Positions 3,574-12,919 of a stretch of 64,000 nucleotides of DNA are shown piece after piece. The stretch's first letter is position 1. The number at the start of each line of letters is the position of its first letter. The notes below the pieces were generated by a model. It was given only the letters and a program-made list of their open reading frames with translations, had not been told where the DNA came from and did not search any database. This DNA comes from Cyanobium sp. E1_MAG_00006 (lineage in GTDB: Bacteria; Cyanobacteriota; Cyanobacteriia; PCC-6307; Cyanobiaceae). Made by a program: the position numbers and the translations under genes. The stretch covers positions 12,455 through 76,454 of the forward strand of contig JAIYAQ010000021.1 in assembly GCA_027488975.1 (NCBI GenBank), given 5' to 3'.

Positions 3574-4479
3574 TCACTCCTCGGGCCCGATGCCCTGCGC
3601 AGTCCGGTCGTGCTCCAGCAGCCGCTCCACCAGGAGCTTGAGCAGCAACGACACGATTGCCACGCCGCCCAGAACGGTGGCGGCACCGAAGGCCAGCTCG
3701 GTGTTGTACTGCTTGTAGGCGTCCTCCACAAACAGCGGCAGGGTCTGGGTTTCGCCGCGGATGTTGCCGCTCACCACCGACACAGCCCCGAATTCTCCGA
3801 GAGCCCTGGCGGCGGTGAGGATCAGGCCGTAGAGAGCCGCCCAGCGCACCGAGGGGAGGGTCACCTTCCAGAACACCTGCCAGTCATTGGCCCCGAGCGT
3901 CTTGGCGGCTTCCTCCTGGTCCCAGCCCTCCTCCTCGAGCAGCGGAATCACCTCCCTAGCCATGAACGGGAAGGTCACGATGATCGTGGCCAGCACGATG
4001 CCAGGGGTGGAGAAGATGATCTTCAGGCCGAGGGCGTTCAGCAGCCCGGCGAACAGCCCGTTGTTGGGGCTGTAGAGCAGCACCAGCATTAGACCCACCA
4101 CCACCGGCGAGATCGAGAACGGCAGGTCGATCACGCTGAGCAGCAGGGCCTTGCCGGGGAACTGGCGCCGGGCAATGGCAGTGGCCGCCGCGAGGCCGAA
4201 GATGCAGTTAGCTGGCACCACGATGGCCGCATCCAGCAGCGTGAGGCGCAGGGCCGACATCAGATCGGGCGACTGGAAGTTCTCCAGGAACGGGGCCAGG
4301 CCCTTGGCGAACGCCTGAACCACAACGGCAATGGCCGGCAGCAGGATGATCACGCCCACGTAGAGGCACGAGACCAGCACGATCAGGGCGGGGCCCAGGC
4401 TTTTCAGGCGTGCCCGGAAGGTGGGTTTGACCCAGGCGGGCGGCTGAACATCCTCGAGTGGCGGGGTGACGAAAGTCAT
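3574..4479 (-). CDS. cysW: sulfate ABC transporter permease CysW
   Basis: IDLPFSISPVVVGL, EEAAKTLGA (EAA loop), ARALGEFGAV, TQTLPLFVEDAYKQY. Confidence 0.95.
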   Translation of the reverse strand: MTFVTPPLEDVQPPAWVKPTFRARLKSLGPALIVLVSCLYVGVIILLPAIAVVVQAFAKGLAPFLENFQSPDLMSALRLTLLDAAIVVPANCIFGLAAATAIARRQFPGKALLLSVIDLPFSISPVVVGLMLVLLYSPNNGLFAGLLNALGLKIIFSTPGIVLATIIVTFPFMAREVIPLLEEEGWDQEEAAKTLGANDWQVFWKVTLPSVRWAALYGLILTAARALGEFGAVSVVSGNIRGETQTLPLFVEDAYKQYNTELAFGAATVLGGVAIVSLLLKLLVERLLEHDRTAQGIGPEE

Positions 4480-4522
4480 GGCAACACCGGCGGCAGAGAG
4501 CTGAGCGGGAGAGCGGAGCGCA

Positions 4523-5377
4523 TCAGGTGGCCTCGGCGCCCTGGTAGCGCTGACCCCAGACCTGCAGGAGGTTGATCACCAGCAGACTCACCAGTGCGAA
4601 CAGCAGCATCACGGTGCCGATCACCGTGGCGGCCGGCAGGTCGTATTCCTCCAGCTTCTGCACGATCAGCGTGGGCGTGATCAGATCGCGGAAGGGCACG
4701 TTGCTGGAGATCATGATCACGGATCCGTACTCCCCCACAGCGCGGCTGTAACCCTGGGCGACGCCCGAGAGAATCGCCGGCAGCAGTTGCGGCAGGACCA
4801 CTCGGAAGAAGGTCTGGCTCTGGCTCGCGCCGAGGCACCACGACGCCTCCTCCTGCTCCTTCTCGAGGGAACGGAGCACCGGCTCCACGGTGCGCACCAC
4901 GAAGGGAAGGGAGATGAACACCATCGCCACGGCAACCCCGAAGGAGGTGAAGGCCACCTTCACGCCGAACAACTGCAGGATCGGCCGGCCCAGCCAGCCC
5001 TCTTCGCTGTAAACGGCCGTGAGCGCCAGGCCCGCCACGGCGGTGGGGAGGGCAAAAGGCAGATCGATCAGCGAATCCAGCAGCCGCTGGCCAGGGAAGC
5101 GGCAACGGATGAGTGCCCAGGCAATCACCAGGCCAAACAGACCATTGATCAGGCTGGCGATCAGGGCCAGTCCGAAACTGATCTTGTAGGTGGCCACAGC
5201 CTCGGGGGATGTGGCGATCTCCCAGAAGTCCGCCGGCCCGACGTGGAAGGCCTTGAGCAACATGCCGCCGAGCGGCAGAAAGAGCATCAGGCTGAGATAC
5301 AACCAGGTGATGCGCCACGACCAGCTGGGCAGCTGGAGCCTGGGCAAGCGCCGCAGGCGGGAGAGAACAGCGGCCAT
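4523..5377 (-). CDS. cysT: sulfate ABC transporter permease CysT (CysU)
   Basis: DLPFALPTAVAGL, LPFVVRTVEPVL, EEASWCLGAS, GEYGSVIMIS; ATG at 5377 chosen, ORF extends to 5458. Confidence 0.95.
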   Translation of the reverse strand: MAAVLSRLRRLPRLQLPSWSWRITWLYLSLMLFLPLGGMLLKAFHVGPADFWEIATSPEAVATYKISFGLALIASLINGLFGLVIAWALIRCRFPGQRLLDSLIDLPFALPTAVAGLALTAVYSEEGWLGRPILQLFGVKVAFTSFGVAVAMVFISLPFVVRTVEPVLRSLEKEQEEASWCLGASQSQTFFRVVLPQLLPAILSGVAQGYSRAVGEYGSVIMISSNVPFRDLITPTLIVQKLEEYDLPAATVIGTVMLLFALVSLLVINLLQVWGQRYQGAEAT

Positions 5378-5569
5378 TGCGCTGGTCGTACCGGAGTAAC
5401 CCGAACGTACCACCAGATCAGAGTCAATACAACGGTAATCCACCGGGTTTATGGCCATAGCATGCCGCTAGCGCTTGCCGCCAACGGAGCAGACGGATCA
5501 GGGAGCTGGAGCAGCCCGAGCTGACCCCATCCCTACGTCTGGTCAAAATGGATCAAACGATCAGCCGCC

Positions 5570-6592
5570 ATGGGCATCCGGGTCGCCAACGTCAGTAAGC
5601 GCTTCGGTGACTTCCACGCCGTGGATGAAGTCAGCGTTGATGTGGAGAGCGGCTCCCTGGTGGCCCTGCTGGGCCCATCCGGTTCCGGCAAGAGCACCCT
5701 GCTGCGCCTGATCGCCGGCCTTGAGGAGATCGACAGCGGCCGCATCTGGATCACGGGTGAAGAAGCCACCGGCCGCACCGTTCAGGACCGCCAGGTGGGC
5801 TTCGTGTTCCAACACTTCGCCCTGTTCAAGCACCGCACGGTGCGCCAGAACGTGGCCTTCGGCCTGGAGCTGCGCCGCTGGAAACGGGAGGCGATCCGTC
5901 GCCGCGTCGACGAACTGCTGGACCTGGTGCAGCTGCAGGGCCTCGGCAACCGCTACCCCTCCCAGCTCTCCGGTGGCCAGCGGCAGCGGGTGGCCCTGGC
6001 CCGGGCGCTGGCGGTGCAACCGCGGGTGCTGCTGCTGGACGAACCCTTCAGCGCCCTCGACGCCAAGGTGCGCAAGGAACTGCGGGCCTGGCTGCGCCAG
6101 CTCCACGATGAGATGCACGTCACCACCGTGATCGTGACCCACGACCAGGAGGAGGCGATGGAGGTGGCCGACAAGATCGTGGTGATGAACCACGGCAGGG
6201 TGGAGCAGATCGGCACCCCGGCTGAGATCTATGACCACCCGGCCACCCCCTTCGTGATGGGCTTCATCGGGGCGGTCAACGTGTTGCCCCAGGGGGCGAT
6301 CCAGGTGGCCAGTGGCACCGGCGCCGGCACTCCGGCGGAAGCGCAGTTGTTCGTACGCCCCCACGATGTGGAGGTGTTCACCGAGCCCCAGGCCGGCACC
6401 GTTGCCGTGGAGCTGCGCCGCCTCAGCCACATGGGCCGCGATCTGCAGGCCGAGCTGGTGATGGCCGATGGCCAGGTGATCACAGCCCAGATCCCACGCG
6501 AGCAGATGGCGTTCGACAGCGTCAGCCCCGGCAGCCTCCTCCACGTGCGCAGCCGCGAGGCCCGCGCCTTCACGCCGGACTACAGCATCTGA
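5570..6592 (+). CDS. cysA: sulfate ABC transporter ATP-binding protein CysA
   Basis: Walker [44 protein letters not shown]-like C-terminus. Confidence 0.95.
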
Positions 6593-6668
6593 ACCGGCGC
6601 GCAAGCCCCAAGGGCACATCACCGATCGGGAATAGCCTTTATGTTGCCGCCAGTCCTCGGAGCGGCTG

Positions 6669-7058
6669 TTGTTCTCGGCCACCTTTCGCTATGCCCTGAT
6701 CAGCCTGCTGGAGATCGCCGGCTCGGAGGACGGTGTGAACACGGCCTTGATCGCCCAGCGCCACAACATTCCCGGCACGTATCTCGCCAATGTGCTGCGT
6801 GATCTGCGCCGGCTGGGAGTGATCGTGAGCCAGAAGGGGCGCCGCGGCGGCTACCTGCTGGCCAAACCTCCGGAGCAGATCGATCTGCTGGCCATGCACC
6901 GTGGACTGGCTGGATCCAACGATCCAGCGGGATCGAAGCTGCAGGCACCCAGCGGCGCTGAAGTGTGGCTCCAGGCGATCGAGAACCGCTGGCGCCAGGA
7001 GCTGGCGAACACCAGCCTGCTGGACGTGCAACAGTTCGTACAAAAAGGTACGGAATGA
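6669..7058 (+). CDS. Rrf2-family transcriptional regulator (Cys-free)
   Basis: RYAL..L..IA...IA.R.NIP..YL..VL..LRR.G.I.S.KG..GGY.LAKPPEQI; no cysteines. Confidence 0.85.
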   Translation: MFSATFRYALISLLEIAGSEDGVNTALIAQRHNIPGTYLANVLRDLRRLGVIVSQKGRRGGYLLAKPPEQIDLLAMHRGLAGSNDPAGSKLQAPSGAEVWLQAIENRWRQELANTSLLDVQQFVQKGTE

Positions 7059-7151
7059 CTCGTCAATCCGCAGGCATCACAAGCGATGCGGCGCCAATCG
7101 TGAGCAGTTTTCACTGAAGATCGCGGCCAGAGCTGGCATCAGGAGGCCAGC

Positions 7152-7181
7152 AAAAAGCCAGCCACTGGAGGGCGGCTGGCT
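7152..7181 (-). terminator. Rho-independent terminator for the cysR transcript
   Basis: 8-bp stem AGCCAGCC/GGCTGGCT with an A-run on the + strand side (U-tract on the minus strand). Confidence 0.6.
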
Positions 7182-7224
7182 GGAGGAAGATCCACGAAGG
7201 ATCGAATGGATGGGTCTCAGGTGG

Positions 7225-7305
7225 TCAGGCCTGCGTGGTCTCTGACTGCAACATTCTCGCCCTGTGGGTACAGGCGAGGATGGCGATGGCGATCCAGAGC
7301 AACAT
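7225..7305 (-). CDS. 26-aa hydrophobic micropeptide (not in ORF track)
   Basis: MLLWIAIAILACTHRARMLQSETTQA*; ATG 2 nt after the stop of the upstream 58-aa ORF, upstream of the terminator. Confidence 0.4.
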   Translation of the reverse strand: MLLWIAIAILACTHRARMLQSETTQA

Positions 7306-7307
7306 GA

Positions 7308-7484
7308 TCAGCCCCCACGCCCCTGAGGCTTGTGGGCAACAGTTGCTGAATCAACCTCCAGCCAGTAAGCAGCCAGGCGACCATCGCAGCGGAACTGAGC
7401 CAGGGTCAGGGGGCCCTGGTGATGCAGCAGCTGGCCGTTGCGAAACTGCAGCGTATAACGAGGTGCAGAAGATGAGTGGGTCAT
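7308..7484 (-). CDS. 58-aa microprotein ending in Gly-Gly, ThiS/MoaD-like N-terminus (not in ORF track)
   Basis: MTHSSSAPRYTLQFRNGQLLHHQGPLTLAQFRCDGRLAAYWLEVDSATVAHKPQGRGG*; RBS GGAGGAG-ACG-ATG directly after the cysR stop. Confidence 0.6.
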   Translation of the reverse strand: MTHSSSAPRYTLQFRNGQLLHHQGPLTLAQFRCDGRLAAYWLEVDSATVAHKPQGRGG

Positions 7485-7495
7485 CGTCTCCTCCC

Positions 7496-8074
7496 TCAGG
7501 CAAAAACGGCGGAGATCGCGGTGGAGGGGATAAACAGATCGTCCTTACTGATCTGTTGCAGCACACCCTCACCCTTGTAACGGTTGAGCATCTTGGTCAC
7601 CGTCACCCGTGTCAGGCCGCAGAGATCAGCCAGTGATTTGTGGGTGAGGTTCATGTCCTTGAGCGAGAGGCGATAGCCCCTGGAACTCACCTGGCCGAAA
7701 CGCCGGCCGATCCAGGCCAGCAGGGTCAGCAGTCGCTGGTCGGCCGAGCGGATGCGGTTGAGTTGAAGAATCTCCTCGAGGTTCTGGATCTGCTGGAGCA
7801 GCAGCCGCTCCACATCGGAAGCGGCCGGCTGGAACTGCTCCACGATCACGGTGGAGATGCACTGGATCTCCACGGGCTTGAGGGCGGAGTAGGCGGCGGT
7901 GACCCAGTCACCGGGCCCCCAGACCCCGAGAACGATGAACTCTCCATCCTCGTCCCATGTGGAGGTGCGGATGTAGCCGTCCTGAATCTTCCAGTTCAGG
8001 GTTTCCTGCAGCACGTCACCGGGCTGCAGGGTGAGGCGGAGCGGTTGCTGTGTGGCGGTGGTGGCGGCAGGCAT
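7496..8074 (-). CDS. cysR: Crp/Fnr-family regulator, CysR-like
   Basis: Crp fold (G.F..LG.WGPGD) and HTH LTHKSLADLCGLTRVTVTKML; location inside a sulfate ABC cluster as known for Synechococcus CysR. Confidence 0.75.
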   Translation of the reverse strand: MPAATTATQQPLRLTLQPGDVLQETLNWKIQDGYIRTSTWDEDGEFIVLGVWGPGDWVTAAYSALKPVEIQCISTVIVEQFQPAASDVERLLLQQIQNLEEILQLNRIRSADQRLLTLLAWIGRRFGQVSSRGYRLSLKDMNLTHKSLADLCGLTRVTVTKMLNRYKGEGVLQQISKDDLFIPSTAISAVFA

Positions 8075-8250
8075 GGCGTGTCTGGCAGATGGATGTCATG
8101 GCTTGAAGGAAGGCCAGCGAAGCGCTGGCCGTAAGCACTCGGCGACAACAGCTCGTACGAGAGCCCGCGAGATGGCCCAAACTATAGCACTTATGCCCAA
8201 CCGGGAAACCGGATTATGTCGGCAGACCCGGATCTCTCGCCTGCCTCCGC

Positions 8251-8682
8251 TCAGATGAAGTACATGGCCTGTGGTTGCCGCAGGGCATCACGCCGCTCGA
8301 TCAGCCGCTCCAGGCTGGTGCCCTCAAGGGCCTGCAGCCGGGCCCGATCCAGCTCGCCAGCAAAGGCGTGCAGCGCCTCGAACTCCGGCGTCTGTCGCCC
8401 AACGGCATCACGACTGGCGCCATCCCCTTCCAAGCAGCTCACAACCTCGGACACGAGGATCTCGCCAGGGGGTCGGGTGAGCTGATATCCACCCTTCGGA
8501 CCGCGGATACTGCGCAGAATCCCGCCGCGCCGAAGGCTGGTGAGCATCTGCTCCAGGTAGCGATCGGGAATGCCCTGGCGCGTGGCGATCTCGCCCACCT
8601 GCAGCACCCCGCCACTGCTGTAAAGGCCGGCCAGCTCGATCAGAGCCACCAGGCCGTATTTGGTCTTGGAGCTGAAGGCCAC
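8251..8682 (-). CDS. Rrf2-family regulator, CymR-like
   Basis: FSSKTKYGLVALIELA...EIATRQGIPDRYLEQML..LRRGG.LRSIRGPKGGY.L.RPP; no 3-Cys Fe-S motif; C-terminus ...QAMYFI; GTG start at 8682. Confidence 0.85.
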   Translation of the reverse strand: MAFSSKTKYGLVALIELAGLYSSGGVLQVGEIATRQGIPDRYLEQMLTSLRRGGILRSIRGPKGGYQLTRPPGEILVSEVVSCLEGDGASRDAVGRQTPEFEALHAFAGELDRARLQALEGTSLERLIERRDALRQPQAMYFI

Positions 8683-8831
8683 TGGCTTACCGGAGATTGA
8701 TCTCAGACCGGATTGTGACAGCGGGAGCAGGGCCCGAAGGAGGCACCCGACTTTTCCGATGATGTAAACGGGAATACGCTGCAAGGGCCCTTCAGATCCG
8801 TACCTTGCCCCGAGTATCCAATCGAATTTAC

Positions 8832-9878
8832 GTGGCATCCCTTTCCACCCTGTTGCCCCGCCGGCTCGGTGCGGGCCTGGCCCTCACCGCCCTGGCAGCG
8901 AGCAGCGGCTCGGTCCTGCTGGCCGCCCAGGCCCAGGCCCAGGCGAATAAGCAGCAGCAGATTCTGCTGGTGAGCTACGCCGTCACCAAGGCGGCCTACG
9001 ACAAGATCATTCCTCTCTTCCAGGCCGACTGGAAGAAGAAGACCGGTCAGACCGTGGTCATCAAGACCAGCTATGGCGGCTCCGGCTCCCAGACCCGCGC
9101 TGTGATCGATGGCCTTGAGGCCGATGTGGTCGGCCTGGCCATGGCCGCCGACGTCACCAAGATCGAGAAGGCCGGCCTGATCCAGCCCGGCTGGGCCGAA
9201 GAGCTGCCCAACGACTCGGTGGCGACCAACTCCACCGTGGCTTTCTTCGTGCGCCCGGGCAACCCCAAGAAGATCAACAGCTGGAAAGATCTCGACAACA
9301 AGGACGTTGACGTGGTCACCGCCAATCCCAAGACCTCCGGTGGCGCCCGCTGGAACTTCCTGGGCCTGTGGGGCTCAGTGACCGAGACCGGTGGTTCGGA
9401 AGCCGATGCCAGGAAGTACATCGCCTCGGTGCTGCGCAACGTGGATGTGCTGCCCAAGGACGCCCGCGAAGCCACCGACACCTTCGTGAAGCGGCGCAAG
9501 GGTGATGTGCTGCTGAACTGGGAGACCGAAGCGATCCTGGCCAAGAAGAACGGCGAGTGGACTGTTCCCTACAAGCTCCCCAGCCCCAACGTGCTGACAG
9601 AAATGCCGATCGCCGTGGTCGACAAGAACGTGGACAAGCGCGGCACCCGCAAGGTGAGCGAAGCGTTCGCCAGGTTCCTGTTCTCGCCTGCGGCCCAGAG
9701 GGCCTTCGTGGATAACGGCTTCCGCCCGGTGACACCGGAAGGCAAGAAGTATGCCGGCACCCGCTTCCAGCAGGTGAAGTTCTACCGGGTGGGCGATTTC
9801 GGTGGCTGGCCCGGGGTCGACCGGAAGTTCTTCGGCAAGGGCGGCGTCTGGGATCAGATCTTCTCCAAGAACCGCTGA
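8832..9878 (+). CDS. sbpA: sulfate-binding periplasmic protein (copy 1)
   Basis: LLVSYAVTKAAYD, SYGGSGSQTRAVIDGLEADVV, NPKTSGGARWNFL, NWETEA; AQA-type signal peptide; start uncertain. Confidence 0.92.
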   Translation: MASLSTLLPRRLGAGLALTALAASSGSVLLAAQAQAQANKQQQILLVSYAVTKAAYDKIIPLFQADWKKKTGQTVVIKTSYGGSGSQTRAVIDGLEADVVGLAMAADVTKIEKAGLIQPGWAEELPNDSVATNSTVAFFVRPGNPKKINSWKDLDNKDVDVVTANPKTSGGARWNFLGLWGSVTETGGSEADARKYIASVLRNVDVLPKDAREATDTFVKRRKGDVLLNWETEAILAKKNGEWTVPYKLPSPNVLTEMPIAVVDKNVDKRGTRKVSEAFARFLFSPAAQRAFVDNGFRPVTPEGKKYAGTRFQQVKFYRVGDFGGWPGVDRKFFGKGGVWDQIFSKNR

Positions 9879-9916
9879 TCCCCGACTCCGACGGAGGGAC
9901 ACCACACCAGAAGCCC

Positions 9917-9947
9917 AGGCCTCGGCGGTCTCCGCCGGGGCCTTTTT
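9917..9947 (+). terminator. Rho-independent terminator after sbpA
   Basis: 12-bp stem AGGCCTCGGCGG-TCT-CCGCCGGGGCCT (one G-U pair) followed by TTTT. Confidence 0.85.
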
Positions 9948-9972
9948 GCAGCAGAAGCTTTGCAGCAGAAGC
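9945..9972. repeat. 14-bp tandem duplication
   Basis: TTTGCAGCAGAAGC x2, exact. Confidence 0.85.
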
Positions 9973-10019
9973 ACCCGCCCGCCGCGGTAGGCTTATCTCT
10001 TGTTACACATCAGATTACC

Positions 10020-11093
10020 GTGGTATCCAGCCCCGCCGGTCGTGTCAGTCGGTTTGCATCAAGTGCTGTGCTGGCCTCCACCGCCTGCATCGCCCTTGCC
10101 GGCTTGACGGGCTGCGGCACGCCAAAGGCCACGACAGAAGCGGGGAATAGCAGCAGTTCCCCGCAGCAGCTCCTGCTGGTGAGCTACGCCGTCACCAAAG
10201 CGGCCTACGACCGCATCCTGCCCGCCTTCGAAGCGGACTGGAAGGCCAGAACGGGGCAGAGCGTGAGCGTGAAGACCAGTTACGGCGGCTCCGGCTCCCA
10301 GACCCGTGCCGTGATCGATGGACTGGAGGCCGATGTGGTGGGGCTTGCCCTGGGCGGCGATGTGCTGAAGCTCCAGAAGGCCGGCCTGATCGAGGCTGGC
10401 TGGGATAAAGAGCTGCCGCACGACTCCACCATCACCCACTCGGTGGTGGCCCTGATCACCCGCGAGGGCAATCCCAAGGGCATCCGAACCTGGAAGGATC
10501 TCGGCAAGGCAGGCGTTTCGGTGGTGACGGCCAACCCCAAGACCTCCGGTGGCGCCCGCTGGAATTTCCTGGCGCTGTGGGGATCAGCCAGCCGTGATGG
10601 CGGCAGTGAGGCTCAGGCCCGTGCCTTTGTGGGCCAGGTGTACGGCAATGTTGAGAGCCTGCCGCGGGATGCACGCGAGGCTTCGGATGTGTTCCTCAAG
10701 CGCGGCCAGGGGGATGTGCTGATGAACTACGAGAACGAGGCGATCCAGGCGCGCAAGAGCGGCGAGCTGACGCAATCCTTCCTGGTGCCGGAGCAGAACA
10801 TCCGCATCGATGCCCCGATCGCCGTGGTGGACAGGAATGTGGACAAGCACGGCACCCGCAAGGCCGCCGAAGCGCTGGCGACGTTCCTGCAGAGTGAGAA
10901 GGCTCAGACCATCTTCGCGGAGGAGGGATTCCGGCCGGTGAACGAGACCGTGTGGACCAAGGTCAAGGATCGTTTCGCTCCGGTGCCGCGGCTGTTCAGC
11001 GTGGCCGATTTCGGTGGCTGGGAGAAGGTCAACGCCACCTTCTTCGGCGACGGCGGCCTCTGGGATCAACTGTTCCGCCAGCGCCGGGGCTGA
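10020..11093 (+). CDS. sbp: sulfate/thiosulfate-binding lipoprotein (Sbp copy 2)
   Basis: same Sbp motifs as copy 1; lipobox LAGLTG-C; NYENEA; start uncertain. Confidence 0.9.
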   Translation: MVSSPAGRVSRFASSAVLASTACIALAGLTGCGTPKATTEAGNSSSSPQQLLLVSYAVTKAAYDRILPAFEADWKARTGQSVSVKTSYGGSGSQTRAVIDGLEADVVGLALGGDVLKLQKAGLIEAGWDKELPHDSTITHSVVALITREGNPKGIRTWKDLGKAGVSVVTANPKTSGGARWNFLALWGSASRDGGSEAQARAFVGQVYGNVESLPRDAREASDVFLKRGQGDVLMNYENEAIQARKSGELTQSFLVPEQNIRIDAPIAVVDRNVDKHGTRKAAEALATFLQSEKAQTIFAEEGFRPVNETVWTKVKDRFAPVPRLFSVADFGGWEKVNATFFGDGGLWDQLFRQRRG

Positions 11094-11899
11094 TGTGTGA
11101 ACTGCTGGCCCTCAGCGCCAATACCCCCACAGACATGCGCTTCTCCTTCCGCGGCCTGGCGCGGCGCGGCGGCGCGACGGGGGACCATGGCGACGGCTGG
11201 GGGCTGGCCAGCTTCGACCCCCAGGGGGGTGGGCTGAACATCTATCGCGAGCAGACACCCGCCGCCTTCTCACCGGTGGCGGCCCATCTCTCCGAACTGG
11301 ACCTGAAATCACTCGTGTCGCTGGCGCACATCCGCAAAGCCACCCAGGGCGTGGTGACCCTGGAGAACTGCCATCCCTTCCATCGCCAGTGGCTGGGTCA
11401 GGACTGGGTGTTCGCCCACAACGGCGACATCCGCACCGACATTCCCGGGGGCGATCACTACCGCCCGATCGGCGACACCGACAGCGAAGCCGCCTTCTGC
11501 TGGATGCTCAACCAGCTCAGCGAGCGATTCACTGCGCCGACAGCAGCTCCGCCCGATGGACATGCCCTGTTCCCGCTGCTGAACACCTACTCAGCGCACC
11601 TCGCCGGCCATGGCATCTTCAACTGCCTGATCAGCAACGGTGAGTGGCTCTACGCCTATTGCGGCACCAAGCTGCACACGATCACCCGCCGGGCGCCATT
11701 CACCTCGGCCACCCTGGCGGATGACGATGTGACGGTGGACTTCTCGACGCTGACCACCATTCGTGACGTGGTGACGATCGTGAGCACCGAGCCGCTCACC
11801 AGCAATGAAGCCTGGCGCCCGCTCGATGTGGGTGAGGCCCTGCTGCTGCAGCGCGGTGAGGTGGTGGAACGGCGTCTGGCCCCTCAGAGCGGGCTCTGA
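11093..11899 (+). CDS. class II glutamine amidotransferase (YafJ-like Ntn hydrolase)
   Basis: starts MCELL (Cys2 nucleophile), DHGDGWG, AHIRKATQG, NCHPF, FAHNG, GDTDSE; TGATG overlap with the sbp2 stop. Confidence 0.9.
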   Translation: MCELLALSANTPTDMRFSFRGLARRGGATGDHGDGWGLASFDPQGGGLNIYREQTPAAFSPVAAHLSELDLKSLVSLAHIRKATQGVVTLENCHPFHRQWLGQDWVFAHNGDIRTDIPGGDHYRPIGDTDSEAAFCWMLNQLSERFTAPTAAPPDGHALFPLLNTYSAHLAGHGIFNCLISNGEWLYAYCGTKLHTITRRAPFTSATLADDDVTVDFSTLTTIRDVVTIVSTEPLTSNEAWRPLDVGEALLLQRGEVVERRLAPQSGL

Positions 11900-11967
11900 C
11901 CCTGGAGACCGGCCAGACCACCCCGCAGGACGTACGCATCGCGATGGCCGAGCCTCAAAGCGAGAGC

Positions 11968-12144
11968 TCAGGGCTCAAGAGGTGGCGTCTGCTGACTGAT
12001 CATCCAGTTTGTGGCCGCCTGCTGGGTGTGCCAGGCCTGGAGCAACTGCTTGGCCAGGCTGCGCAGGGCATCGGCGTCGGCAGTGGCCTCGATGGCCCGG
12101 TTGAAGCGCTCGATTTCGAAGTGCTGGCTGAGGCTCAGTTCCAT
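11968..12144 (-). CDS. nblA: NblA-like phycobilisome degradation adaptor
   Basis: MELSLSQHFEIERF...LAKQLLQAW..QQAATNWMI aligns by eye with NblA LSLEQQF.I..F...L..L..Q....A....; 58 aa, two helices. Confidence 0.6.
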   Translation of the reverse strand: MELSLSQHFEIERFNRAIEATADADALRSLAKQLLQAWHTQQAATNWMISQQTPPLEP

Positions 12145-12180
12145 GTCCGCTTGCATCCGAATACTCCCTTGACTGGCGGG

Positions 12181-12221
12181 AATGTATCGGGATGGCACTT
12201 TGCTGGCGTAGCGATCAGCAC
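12181..12221 (-). promoter_or_regulatory. putative NtcA-activated (class II) promoter of the nblA-like gene
   Basis: minus strand reads GTG-N8-TAC (12221-12208), 21 nt, then TACATT (TAN3T, 12186-12181). Confidence 0.55.
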
Positions 12222-12313
12222 CAACCCACAGCCCTGTTCCTGTTTCGGGTTATGACAACGGCCACGCTCATCAGCGCTGCAAATCAGAATCATCAGCGAT
12301 CTGGAGTGGTTGC

Positions 12314-12478
12314 ATGCGCCTGAGCTGGCCCCAGCACCTGCTGACCGCCCGGACCCTCGAGCTGAGCGGCCCTGAGGAGCGCGGCATGGCCCTGGCCCTG
12401 ATGGGCATGGCGCTGCTGCTGCTCTCTCAGGACCTGCTCGACCTGGAAGCCGGTCATCCCAGCGCCGAGGAGCACTGA
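12314..12478 (+). CDS. 54-aa hypothetical protein (not in ORF track)
   Basis: MRLSWPQHLLTARTLELSGPEERGMALALMGMALLLLSQDLLDLEAGHPSAEEH*; GC3-rich; convergent with hsp20. Confidence 0.5.
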   Translation: MRLSWPQHLLTARTLELSGPEERGMALALMGMALLLLSQDLLDLEAGHPSAEEH

Positions 12479-12481
12479 GCC

Positions 12482-12919
12482 TCAGGCCTCCACCTGCACG
12501 CTTACCGTGGTGGCGGTGTTGGCTTTGGGAGCCGTCACCGTGAGCAGGCCATCGCGATAGCGGGCCTGCAGCTGATCACGATCAATCGGAGCCGGGAAGC
12601 GGAAGCTGCGGCTCCAGGTGCCGTAGCGGAACTCGCTCACCAAGGGGCGAGCCCCAACGTCGCTGGCGTCGGCCGCGGCCTCTTCAGGCTGGCTGCGCTG
12701 GTTGCGGCGCTCGGCGCTGATCACCAGGGTGCGGTCGGTGGCCTTGACATCGATGGCGCCCTTGTCGACGCCGGGGAGCTCCAGCACCACCGCGTAAGCC
12801 TCGGCAGTTTCATGCACTTCAGCGGCGGGCACCCGCTCGGCGGTCTGCAGCTGCTGGCTCAGTTGCTGCTCGATGCGATCGAACAGTTCAAACGGAGAGG
12901 AGGTGCGCAGGGTCAACAT
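12482..12919 (-). CDS. hspA: Hsp20/alpha-crystallin small heat-shock protein
   Basis: PAAEVHET..AY.V.LELPGV...IDV....L.ISAERR...SEFRYG.WSRSF.FP...D......YRDGLL.V..PK. Confidence 0.9.
   Translation of the reverse strand: MLTLRTSSPFELFDRIEQQLSQQLQTAERVPAAEVHETAEAYAVVLELPGVDKGAIDVKATDRTLVISAERRNQRSQPEEAAADASDVGARPLVSEFRYGTWSRSFRFPAPIDRDQLQARYRDGLLTVTAPKANTATTVSVQVEA

What the first reader, a model, noticed from the sequence alone, without database searches (positions are those of the whole stretch)
8251..8682. Cyanobacterial CymR-like repressor with a CysK-docking MYFI tail
Seen: an Rrf2 without the Fe-S Cys triad, ending ...QPQAMYFI. Known: Bacillus CymR ends in MFYI, and CysK-binding partners (CysE, CymR) insert a C-terminal Ile into the O-acetylserine sulfhydrylase active site, so O-acetylserine dissociates the complex. 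Inference: this cyanobacterium senses cysteine status through a CymR-CysK complex, divergently controlling sbpA and possibly cysR.
Basis: partly seen in the sequence, partly recalled or inferred. Interest (0 to 1): 0.75.

Follow-up and report, generated by a model that had tools for sequence, protein, structure and literature searches.

The report
Cyanobacterial CymR-like regulator with CysK tail
A small DNA-binding regulator beside the sulfate-uptake genes of a freshwater picocyanobacterium ends in the same short tail that Bacillus and Staphylococcus CymR insert into the enzyme CysK, and comparison across cyanobacteria suggests the phylum may sense sulfur status in this way, which has not been described for it.

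Summary
Window 8251-8682(-) encodes a 143-aa Rrf2 regulator with one Cys and no Fe-S ligand triad, ending QPQAMYFI.

The cited precedent holds. Named CymR proteins of Staphylococcus and Bacillus end YMFYI in 91 of 100 cases, and that pentapeptide binds S. aureus CysK at about 30 nM.

- 119 of 120 close homologs end M-[YF]-[YF]-I.
- 20 of 20 orthologs from other cyanobacterial families end MYYI.

New evidence:
- In 16 of those 20 genomes the gene lies directly upstream of cysK on the same strand.
- In 76 of 80 Cyanobium-group loci it is divergent from a sulfate-binding-protein gene.
- The genome's CysK is about 70% identical to E. coli CysK and keeps the pocket motifs.
- Its CysE has lost the C-terminal Ile that other cyanobacterial CysE keep.
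- A second MYFI paralog lies elsewhere in the genome.
- A conserved operator-like motif precedes rrf2-cysK operons across the phylum and recurs at the 5' ends of sbpA, sbp2 and cysT here.
- A separate GTA-N8-TAC site tracks with cysR.

Binding to CysK and release by O-acetylserine remain inference. I file it as a new member of the CymR-CysK kind in a new phylum. It scores below the curated CymR cut-off.

The parts
8251..8682 (-). Rrf2A: 143-aa Rrf2-family regulator without an Fe-S cluster site, CymR-like (stop codon 8251-8253, GTG start 8680-8682)
   Evidence: Translation. Pfam and NCBIfam. AF2 model pLDDT 89.8. Foldseek best rmsd to B. subtilis and S. aureus CymR. 31% identity end to end to Bacillus CymR.
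8254..8265 (-). Codons for the C-terminal tail M140-Y141-F142-I143, the proposed CysK-docking peptide
   Evidence: M140 and I143 are invariant and 141/142 aromatic in an 87-sequence alignment down to 33% identity. 119 of 120 close homologs and 20 of 20 distant cyanobacterial orthologs keep the tail. In the model the tail is coil after the last helix, with low pLDDT. In S. aureus, M7, the aromatic at 8, Y9 and I10 of YMFYI are each needed for tight CysK binding.
8683..8831 (.). Divergent control region between Rrf2A and sbpA
   Evidence: About 120 nt in most of 74 related loci. Three conserved blocks in a 79-sequence alignment.
8710..8721 (-). CTGTCACAATCC, a likely extended -10 element of the Rrf2A promoter
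   Evidence: CTGyCACAATCC is conserved in nearly all 79 loci, about 35-45 nt upstream of the start codon. Its role as a promoter element is inferred.
8764..8777 (+). GTAAACGGGAATAC, a GTA-N8-TAC site of NtcA/CRP type. It lies 23 nt upstream of TACCTT (8801-8806), a class II activator layout for sbpA. It is probably the CysR site, not the Rrf2 site.
   Evidence: GTA and TAC are conserved while the N8 varies. The exact motif is in 40 of 66 loci with cysR, 0 of 11 without, and 2% of shuffles.
8811..8839 (+). CGAGTATCCAATCGAATTTACGTGGCATC, the candidate Rrf2 operator at the sbpA 5' end, just downstream of the putative -10
   Evidence: Conserved block CCAATCGGATTACCGTGGT in 68 of 79 loci with no 3-nt periodicity. 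It resembles the phylum-wide CCCCAGT-GGAGA-ACCGGGG-TAT element upstream of rrf2(-cysK) and the element upstream of B-type genes.
8805..9878 (+). sbpA, sulfate ABC transporter substrate-binding protein (the true start may be GTG 8832 or TTG 8853)
   Evidence: TIGR00971 at 291 bits. Divergent from Rrf2A in 76 of 80 loci.
9999..10027 (+). Second copy of the candidate operator, at the sbp2 5' end
   Evidence: Top genome-wide hit (27.3 bits) of the PWM built from orthologous sbpA sites. The next hit outside the locus scores 17.4.
5427..5447 (-). Partial third copy (CCCGGTGGATTACCGTTGTAT) upstream of cysT
   Evidence: Sequence shown and pattern scan. It is below the PWM threshold, so this is weaker evidence.
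7496..8074 (-). cysR-like CRP/FNR-family regulator, downstream of Rrf2A on the same strand with no terminator-like site between them
   Evidence: Pfam HTH_Crp_2 and Crp. Follows Rrf2A in most loci. No terminator-like site in 8075-8250.
9960..11093 (+). sbp2, a second sulfate-binding protein paralog
   Evidence: TIGR00971 at 280 bits. Synteny.

Best explanation
Rrf2A is a CymR-type repressor of the Rrf2 family that carries no Fe-S cluster.

Proposed mechanism:
1. The flexible C-terminal tail ...M-Y-F-I inserts into the active site of CysK (O-acetylserine sulfhydrylase A). The Ile carboxylate sits where the substrate carboxylate binds.
2. The Rrf2A-CysK complex is the form that binds DNA well. 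It sits on an operator of the type CCAATCGGATTACCGTGG at the 5' ends of sbpA, sbp2 and probably cysT.
3. When sulfide is short, O-acetylserine accumulates and competes the tail out of CysK. The complex falls apart and the sulfate-uptake genes are derepressed.
4. The CRP-type CysR activates sbpA from a GTA-N8-TAC site at about -41.5.

Shown here: the anatomy, tail conservation, presence of a fitting CysK, gene linkage and conserved DNA motifs.

Inferred: CysK binding, sensitivity to O-acetylserine, repressor polarity, and which protein binds which motif.
For: - Tail identity. S. aureus CymR ends YMFYI. Its pentapeptide binds SaCysK at 34 nM, and Ala at M7, F8, Y9 or I10 cuts or abolishes binding. 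Named Bacillus and Staphylococcus CymR end YMFYI in 91 of 100 cases. Rrf2A aligns end to end with Bacillus CymR at 31% identity, with MYFI over MFYI. It also aligns to the last position of the NCBIfam CymR model.
- Tail conservation. 119 of 120 close homologs keep it. All 15 family members examined keep an M-Ar-Ar/H-I tail. 20 of 20 orthologs from other families end MYYI, as do a further 120 of 120. M and I are invariant in 87 sequences down to 33% identity.
- Gene linkage to cysK. In 16 of 20 genomes from other cyanobacterial families the gene sits 50-70 nt upstream of cysK on the same strand. Locus L131 reads rrf2-cysR-cysK inside the sulfate cluster. Locus L136 reads cysK-rrf2 divergent from cysE and a crp-like gene.
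- Linkage to sulfate uptake. 76 of 80 related loci have sbp divergent from the gene, followed by cysR, cysA and cysTW.
- A fitting partner. The genome's CysK scores 440 bits on TIGR01139 and is about 70% identical to E. coli CysK. It keeps TSGNTG, QQF, MPETMS, GTGGT and QGIGAGF. These are the segments that hold the Ile carboxylate, the aromatic channel and the Met pocket in SaCysK.
- No competing tail. CysE of this genome and of six relatives in the family lacks the C-terminal Ile, whereas other cyanobacterial CysE end FLDGAGI. Only the two Rrf2 paralogs end Ar-Ar-I in the genome.
- Structure. The model has high confidence. The tail 136-143 is unstructured after the last helix. CymR structures are the closest by rmsd.
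- Cis elements.
Against: - No binding or expression data exist.
- The score on the curated CymR model is 85 bits against a cut-off of 195.
- Tyr at position -5, worth about 160-fold in affinity in S. aureus, is Ala, Val, Ser or Thr here and Ile or Leu in other cyanobacteria.
- In this genome cysK is not next to either tailed Rrf2 gene, and no operator-like motif was seen upstream of cysK or cysE.
- The left half of the candidate operator at sbpA is a poor palindrome. Genome-wide scans in this 67% GC genome are noisy.
- The assignment of motifs to Rrf2A or CysR rests on position and co-occurrence only.
- A second OASS-like protein (contig C8) and a second tailed paralog (contig C9) leave the exact pairing open.
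Confidence: 0.6

Rival explanations
1. The tail docks into CysK, but the main output is enzymatic rather than transcriptional. The Rrf2 proteins would act as inhibitors or buffers of CysK, replacing the lost CysE tail. DNA binding by Rrf2A would be independent of CysK and would respond to another signal, for example the redox state of the conserved Cys83.
For: CymR and CysE peptides inhibit CysK activity. CysE of this family has lost its Ile tail, so some other partner might take over control of CysK. C83 is at least 90% conserved among close homologs. S. aureus CymR was also solved in an oxidized form (PDB 3t8t).
Against: A transcription factor is normally far less abundant than CysK, so stoichiometric inhibition is unlikely (general knowledge). 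In B. subtilis the complex is what controls DNA binding (Tanous 2008, cited). C83 is not conserved across the wider tailed family.
Confidence: 0.15
2. Rrf2A is an ordinary Rrf2 repressor of the sulfate locus that senses something other than CysK and O-acetylserine. The M-Ar-Ar-I tail would serve another purpose, such as packing in the dimer, a protease or degradation tag, or binding another protein.
For: No direct evidence exists for CysK binding. The -5 Tyr is missing. In the own genome cysK is unlinked. The only studied cyanobacterial member, Slr0846, was reported in connection with psaAB expression, not sulfur (title cited; paper not held).
Against: This would not explain the repeated rrf2-cysK gene pair in 16 of 20 families. 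It would not explain why the tail matches the four residues that the SaCysK structure uses, nor the aromatic at -2 plus terminal Ile in 94 of 128 representative homologs. In the model the tail does not pack against the fold.
Confidence: 0.15
3. Rrf2A acts mainly on its own promoter and cysR, as an autoregulated rrf2A-cysR operon. The motif at the 5' ends of sbpA, sbp2 and cysT belongs to another factor, either the tail-less Rrf2C or CysR.
For: No terminator-like site lies between Rrf2A and cysR. CTGyCACAATCC at the Rrf2A promoter is the most conserved block. Three regulators are encoded in the locus.
Against: Most loci lack Rrf2C and some lack cysR, yet they keep the sbp 5' motif. That motif resembles the element upstream of tailed rrf2 genes throughout the phylum.
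Confidence: 0.1

Closest known systems
CymR-CysK regulatory complex of Bacillus subtilis and Staphylococcus aureus
   Same: An Rrf2 fold without Fe-S ligands. The length is about 140 aa. The flexible C-terminal tail has Met, two aromatics and a terminal Ile (MYFI against MFYI). The gene is linked to sulfur and cysteine genes, and a CysK with a conserved pocket is present. Identity to Bacillus CymR is 31% over the full length, and CymR structures are the closest by rmsd.
   Different: The phylum is Cyanobacteriota rather than Bacillota. The score is below the curated CymR cut-off (85 against 195 bits). Tyr at -5 is absent. The likely targets are sulfate ABC-transporter genes. The protein is paired with a CRP-type CysR activator. 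This genome has two tailed paralogs, and CysE here has no competing Ile tail, whereas S. aureus CysE has one.
Cysteine synthase complex (CysE C-terminal ...GDGI/...DYII inserted into CysK)
   Same: The docking principle is the same. A C-terminal Ile carboxylate sits in the CysK active site and O-acetylserine dissociates it.
   Different: The partner is a transcription factor rather than serine acetyltransferase. In this lineage the CysE tail has degenerated to ...FLGDGSEEGS.
IscR/NsrR/RsrR (Fe-S cluster Rrf2 sensors)
   Same: The same winged helix-turn-helix and dimerisation fold. Foldseek and phmmer hits are of similar strength.
   Different: There is no Cys triad and no cluster ligands. IscR-type models align only to about residue 130 and do not cover the tail.
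Slr0846 of Synechocystis sp. PCC 6803 (Rrf2-type regulator required for psaAB expression, Midorikawa et al. 2009) and cyanobacterial Rrf2 SSN cluster 20
   Same: Both are cyanobacterial Rrf2 proteins without conserved Cys or His. The SSN cluster is described as uncharacterised (PMC9218516).
   Different: I could not read the Slr0846 paper or sequence. Whether Slr0846 carries the MYYI tail is therefore not verified. No link to CysK or sulfur was found in the literature searched.
CdiA-CT(EC536)-CysK toxin activation
   Same: Another protein that mimics the CysE tail to bind CysK. The genome's CysK is about 70% identical to the E. coli CysK of that complex (PDB 5j43).
   Different: That case is toxin activation, not gene regulation, and the protein is unrelated.

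Membership tests
Rrf2 family (PF02082 / TIGR00738) | Winged helix-turn-helix plus a long dimerisation helix, with a score above the curated cut-off | tested here: met
   PF02082 at 95.4 bits (cut-off 30). TIGR00738 at 101 bits (cut-off 73.3). The AF2 model has H5-18, H29-36, H40-52, a beta-wing at 56-68 and H99-120. Foldseek probability is 1.0 to Rrf2 structures.
CymR (NCBIfam NF047409 equivalog) | Score at or above the curated equivalog cut-off | tested here: not met
   85.3 bits against a cut-off of 195. Other tailed homologs from outside Bacillales also fall below it, at 100-148 bits.
CymR (functional class: CysK-dependent Rrf2 repressor) | No Fe-S cluster ligands (no Cys triad) | tested here: met
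   There is one Cys (C83) and none in the 86-110 region. The alignment to IscR shows the ligand positions are unoccupied.
CymR (functional class: CysK-dependent Rrf2 repressor) | C-terminal CysK-docking peptide: terminal Ile, aromatic at -2, bulky aromatic at -1, Met at -3, Tyr at -4 (S. aureus Y6-M7-F8-Y9-I10) | tested here: met
   A-M-Y-F-I matches four of the five positions. The Tyr at position 6 is replaced by Ala. The tail is conserved in orthologs.
CymR (functional class: CysK-dependent Rrf2 repressor) | A CysK with an intact partner-peptide pocket in the same genome | tested here: met
   C22:167568-168545 scores 440 bits on TIGR01139 (cut-off 351). It is about 70% identical to E. coli CysK and keeps the TSGNTG, QQF, MPETMS, GTGGT and QGIGAGF segments.
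CymR (functional class: CysK-dependent Rrf2 repressor) | Physical complex with CysK that O-acetylserine dissociates | not testable with these tools
   This needs pull-down, SPR or ITC. Complex prediction with the tools at hand is limited to single unmodified chains.
CymR (functional class: CysK-dependent Rrf2 repressor) | Controls sulfur and cysteine genes through a defined operator | tested here: inconclusive
   Synteny with sbpA, cysR and cysATW in 76 of 80 loci, and with cysK in 16 of 20 distant genomes. Candidate operators are conserved. No binding or expression data exist, and genome-wide motif scans were noisy.
IscR (TIGR02010) | Three Cys plus His ligands for a [2Fe-2S] cluster, with a score above cut-off | tested here: not met
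   68 bits against a cut-off of 207.6. The ligands are absent.

The most novel reading that the evidence does not exclude
CysK-docking Rrf2 regulators may be an ancient and widespread class rather than a peculiarity of Bacillales. Nearly all oxygenic cyanobacteria carry one, usually as an rrf2-cysK operon behind a conserved CCCCAGT-N5-ACCGGGG operator. Many other uncharacterised Rrf2 proteins end in aromatic-x-Ile. In cyanobacteria this pair would be the missing sensor of sulfur status, acting through O-acetylserine. In the picocyanobacterial family CysE has lost its tail. CysK there would be a dedicated co-regulator of two paralogous repressors, one of which was recruited to the sulfate-uptake locus next to CysR. 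If Slr0846 is the Synechocystis member, the same sensor would couple sulfur status to photosystem I gene expression.
Probability: 0.35. Interest if true: 0.8.

Novelty: new member of a known kind. Interest (0 to 1): 0.65.

Why it matters
How cyanobacteria perceive sulfur status is poorly understood. CysR has been known for decades without a known signal. The cyanobacterial Rrf2 cluster is listed as uncharacterised in the one family-wide survey I found (PMC9218516).

A CymR-like protein docking into CysK would give a concrete and easily tested sensing mechanism, with O-acetylserine competing with a four-residue tail. The mechanism would apply to a globally important group of primary producers.

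It would also extend the moonlighting role of CysK as a co-regulator from Bacillota to a second phylum. The loss of the CysE tail in picocyanobacteria suggests that the partners of CysK have been reshuffled during evolution.

Tried and rejected
1. I first read the conserved block in the intergenic region as a TCCCGA-N9-TCGGGA palindrome, a possible Rrf2 operator. A genome scan gave more than 100 chance-level hits and missed the window's own site. Re-reading the alignment showed the conserved letters are GTA-N8-TAC, which is a CRP/NtcA-type site.
2. A PWM of the phylum-wide rrf2 motif, scanned over the 67% GC genome, returned mostly coding-region hits. The 10-mer ACCGKKGTAT occurs at chance frequency, 9 observed against 12.7 expected. 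I claim no regulon beyond the local sites.
3. No Rfam family was found in 4000-12500, so an RNA element at the sbp 5' ends is not supported.
4. No operator-like motif was seen upstream of the genome's cysK or cysE.
5. The search for related loci with the diverse alignment A1 failed because no stretch was conserved enough. A closer alignment worked but returned only Cyanobium-group loci.
6. The Slr0846 paper (PMC2754614) is not held.
7. One literature query was badly posed and uninformative.
9. The other PWM hits, on C31, C1 and C16, lie in coding or low-GC island sequence and were set aside as chance.

Full report
**The object**

Window 8251-8682 on the minus strand encodes a 143-aa protein with a GTG start. 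It begins (M)AFSSKTKYGLVALIELAG and ends RQPQAMYFI. A longer 195-aa reading from ATG 8838 exists. Nearly all homologs are 143 aa and align from residue 1, and the sequence upstream of 8682 behaves as a conserved non-coding control region.

The protein is an Rrf2-family regulator: PF02082 at 95 bits and TIGR00738 at 101 bits. The most specific NCBIfam model it hits is CymR (NF047409). The score is 85 bits, well under the cut-off of 195, but the alignment runs 1-143 onto 1-139/139, which reaches the last model position. The IscR, NsrR and RirA models stop near residue 130.

There is one cysteine (C83) and no Cys or His cluster where IscR and NsrR carry their ligands.

**Organism and genome**

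The window is C17:12455-76454 of a 2.70-Mb assembly with 66.9% G+C. Its closest named relatives are Cyanobium sp. CACIAM 14 and Vulcanococcus limneticus.

**Is the precedent real?**

- The S. aureus CymR decapeptide EDLDGYMFYI binds SaCysK with a Kd of 25 nM.
- The pentapeptide YMFYI is the minimal tight binder.
- I10 and the aromatic at position 8 are indispensable. M7 and Y9 form a hydrophobic plug. Y6 adds two hydrogen bonds (bioRxiv 10.1101/2024.09.19.614015).
- I took the part of S. aureus CymR printed by the PDB search and used it as a query. It retrieved named CymR proteins of Staphylococcus, Mammaliicoccus, Macrococcus, Bacillus and Oceanobacillus. Of 100 full-length sequences, 91 end YMFYI.
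- Rrf2A aligns end to end with Bacillus CymR at 31% identity, with QAMYFI over AYMFYI.

The tail shares Met at -3, aromatics at -2 and -1, and the terminal Ile. It lacks the Tyr at -4 from the Ile, which is position 6 of the decapeptide.

**Is the tail conserved?**

- Of the 120 best homologs (63-99% identity), 119 end M-[YF]-[YF]-I, mostly MYFI.
- In the search of 50%-identity cluster representatives, 61 of 128 near-full-length hits end M-Ar-Ar/H-I. Another 33 end in Ile, nearly always with F, Y or W at -2.
- In an 87-sequence alignment reaching down to 33% identity, the invariant columns are three glycines of the wing, M140 and I143.
- A sample of 150 genomes of the phylum showed that nearly all oxygenic cyanobacteria have one or two hits aligned through residue 143. 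The non-photosynthetic classes mostly do not.
- I fetched 20 such genes from 20 genomes of different families, and all end MYYI. A further 120 of 120 relatives of one of them end MYYI, and all are annotated only as 'Rrf2 family'.
- Within the genome, only two of 24,730 ORFs end [FYWM][FYW][FYW]I, namely this protein and a paralog.

**Gene context**

In 76 of 80 related loci from Cyanobium, Vulcanococcus and freshwater Synechococcus genomes, the gene is divergent from a sulfate-binding-protein gene. It is usually followed on its own strand by the CRP-family cysR, then cysA and cysT/cysW. A class II glutamine amidotransferase often lies beyond the sbp genes.

The decisive new observation comes from the distant orthologs. 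In 16 of 20 genomes of other cyanobacterial families, the MYYI-tailed gene sits 50-70 nt upstream of a cysK gene on the same strand.

Further variants point the same way:
- One family member has sbp2-sbpA divergent from rrf2-cysR-cysK (L131).
- A distant genome has cysK-rrf2 divergent from cysE and a crp-like gene (L136).

A tree places the picocyanobacterial proteins in one clade with three branches:
- an MFYI/MFFI/MYHI group, with some members in sulfate clusters;
- the 'A' type of this window, in sulfate loci;
- a 'B' type.

The cysK-linked MYYI proteins of other cyanobacteria form the sister group.

**The rest of the pathway in this genome**

There are four Rrf2 genes:
- Rrf2A, the gene under study.
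- Rrf2C (window 6669-7058), a tail-less Rrf2.
- A tail-less one on contig C11.
- Rrf2B (C9:35314-35748, minus strand). It is 60% identical to Rrf2A and ends QAQAMYFI. Its neighbours are not sulfur genes: an APC permease, DUF2062, a CBS-domain protein and trkHA.

Same-genus genomes have only the B type, in that same context. Only 3 of 121 family genomes carry two tailed copies, and the small Prochlorococcus-sized genomes carry none.

CysK (C22:167568-168545) scores 440 bits on TIGR01139 and is about 70% identical to E. coli CysK (PDB 8zyc, 5j43). It keeps TSGNTG, QQF, MPETMS, GTGGT and QGIGAGF. These are the segments that bind the Ile carboxylate and line the aromatic channel and Met pocket in SaCysK. 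I matched them by motif, not by a residue-by-residue alignment to SaCysK.

CysE (contig C20) ends ...FLGDGSEEGS, with no terminal Ile. Six other family members also lack it. Most CysE of other cyanobacteria end ...FLDGAGI. In this lineage the canonical CysK-docking tail of CysE is gone, while the Rrf2 tails are kept.

**Structure**

An AlphaFold2 model built with the 87-sequence alignment has mean pLDDT 89.8. The last helix is 124-135, and residues 136-143 are coil with pLDDT about 56. That fits a free docking peptide.

In Foldseek, B. subtilis CymR (2y75, rmsd 2.3-2.5 Å) and S. aureus CymR (3t8r, 2.4 Å) are among the top hits, along with T. potens and E. coli IscR.

**Cis elements**

Aligning the region upstream of the gene from 79 loci gives three conserved blocks.

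1. GTA-N8-TAC (window 8764-8777).
- It lies 23 nt upstream of TACCTT (8801-8806), which is the classical class II layout of NtcA/CRP-type activators, oriented toward sbpA.
- The exact motif is present in 40 of 66 loci that have cysR and in 0 of 11 that lack it. In shuffled sequences it appears 2% of the time.
- The loci are not phylogenetically independent. I assign this site to CysR, or possibly NtcA, rather than to the Rrf2.

2. CTGyCACAATCC (8710-8721, minus strand). This is probably the extended -10 element of the Rrf2A promoter.

3. CCAATCGGATTACCGTGGT at the sbpA 5' end (8811-8839).
- A PWM built from the orthologous sites finds the sbp2 5' end (9999-10027) as the best hit in the whole genome, at 27.3 bits. 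The next hit outside the locus scores 17.4.
- A partial copy lies upstream of cysT (5427-5447).
- A weaker copy (16.3 bits) lies 27 nt upstream of Rrf2B.

Independently, the promoters of the rrf2(-cysK) genes of distant cyanobacteria share a strikingly conserved CCCCAGT-GGAGA-ACCGGGG inverted repeat abutting a TATACT or TATAAT -10 box. It is present in at least 14 of 20 loci. That position is typical of an autorepressor. The elements upstream of B-type genes and at sbpA, sbp2 and cysT resemble its centre and right half, rGAnwACCGkGGTAT.

I take this as the candidate operator of the tailed Rrf2 proteins. The evidence is position and co-occurrence only, and genome-wide scans in this GC-rich genome were too noisy to define a regulon. 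Rfam finds nothing there. No terminator-like site separates Rrf2A from cysR, whereas one follows sbpA at 9927-9942.

**Mechanism**

The best-supported reading is the CymR model transplanted to cyanobacteria.

1. The free tail docks into CysK.
2. The complex occupies operators at the sulfate-uptake genes when sulfur is sufficient.
3. When sulfide is limiting, O-acetylserine accumulates, displaces the tail and relieves repression.
4. CysR supplies activation.

What is shown: the anatomy, the conservation, the presence of the partner and the gene linkage.

What is inferred: binding, the O-acetylserine response, the polarity of regulation and the motif assignments.

I put this at about 0.6. The narrower claim that the tail binds CysK I put at about 0.75. 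The rivals are an enzymatic role for the complex, a tail with another function, and Rrf2A acting mainly on its own operon with cysR.

**Comparison with what is known, and novelty**

The protein works like CymR and shares its defining anatomy, but it fails the curated equivalog score. I therefore file it as CymR-like and not as CymR.

In the literature I could search, I found no paper linking a cyanobacterial Rrf2 protein to CysK or to sulfur sensing. One family-wide survey lists the cyanobacterial Rrf2 cluster as lacking Cys and His and as uncharacterised (PMC9218516). The only studied member I know of is Slr0846, linked to psaAB expression. I could not read that paper, so I do not know whether Slr0846 carries the tail.

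Database names for the cyanobacterial proteins are just 'Rrf2 family transcriptional regulator'.

The finding is a new member of a known kind in a new phylum. It has local particulars: pairing with CysR, two paralogs, and loss of the CysE tail.

Noticed in passing
window 6669-7058 (+): A third Rrf2 gene (Rrf2C, 129 aa, no Cys, ends ...QKGTE with no docking tail) lies between cysA and cysR. A homolog is present at that place in roughly a quarter of the 80 related loci. Its role is unknown.
   Followed up: partly
G000 C9:35314-35748 (-) = L014 8312-8746: A second MYFI-tailed paralog (Rrf2B) is 60% identical to Rrf2A. It sits in a non-sulfur context (APC permease, DUF2062, CBS-domain protein, trkH/trkA). 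It is the only copy in same-genus genomes. An ACCGGGGTAT-containing motif lies 27 nt upstream of its start.
   Followed up: partly
G000 C20:9896-10651 (+) and L146-L151: CysE of this genome and of six other family members has lost the C-terminal Ile (tails ...FLGDGSEEGS, ...FLGDNPGTTS and similar). Most CysE of other cyanobacteria end ...FLDGAGI. A canonical cysteine synthase complex is therefore unlikely in this lineage.
   Followed up: partly
L136 (G098:C1, about 5067600-5071100): A distant cyanobacterium has a second tailed Rrf2 paralog (MYYI) in a compact cluster. cysK and rrf2 are on one strand, divergent from cysE and a CRP-family gene that is 37% identical to the window's cysR. The same Rrf2 plus CRP pairing is thus found around cysteine-synthesis genes.
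   Followed up: no
window 8764-8806 (+): GTAAACGGGAATAC-N23-TACCTT has a class II NtcA/CRP-type promoter layout in front of sbpA. The exact GTA-N8-TAC is found only in related loci that also carry cysR (40 of 66 against 0 of 11).
   Followed up: partly
window 10952/11097-11899 (+): A class II glutamine amidotransferase (PF13230, 302 bits, weak EgtC similarity) follows sbp2. It is conserved next to the sbp genes in most related loci, which suggests a sulfur-related role.
   Followed up: no
P0122-P0271 (representative homologs): Many uncharacterised Rrf2 proteins of unknown origin end in aromatic-x-Ile (for example ...DYVI...NFEI...SYQI). This is the pattern of CysE-type CysK-binding tails. CysK-docking Rrf2 regulators may be much more widespread than CymR.
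   Followed up: no
G000 C8:18700-19725 (+): A second OASS-like protein (NF007989 at 523 bits) has TAGNTG and QF but lacks the QGIGAGF loop. Whether it could also take the Rrf2 tails is open.
   Followed up: no
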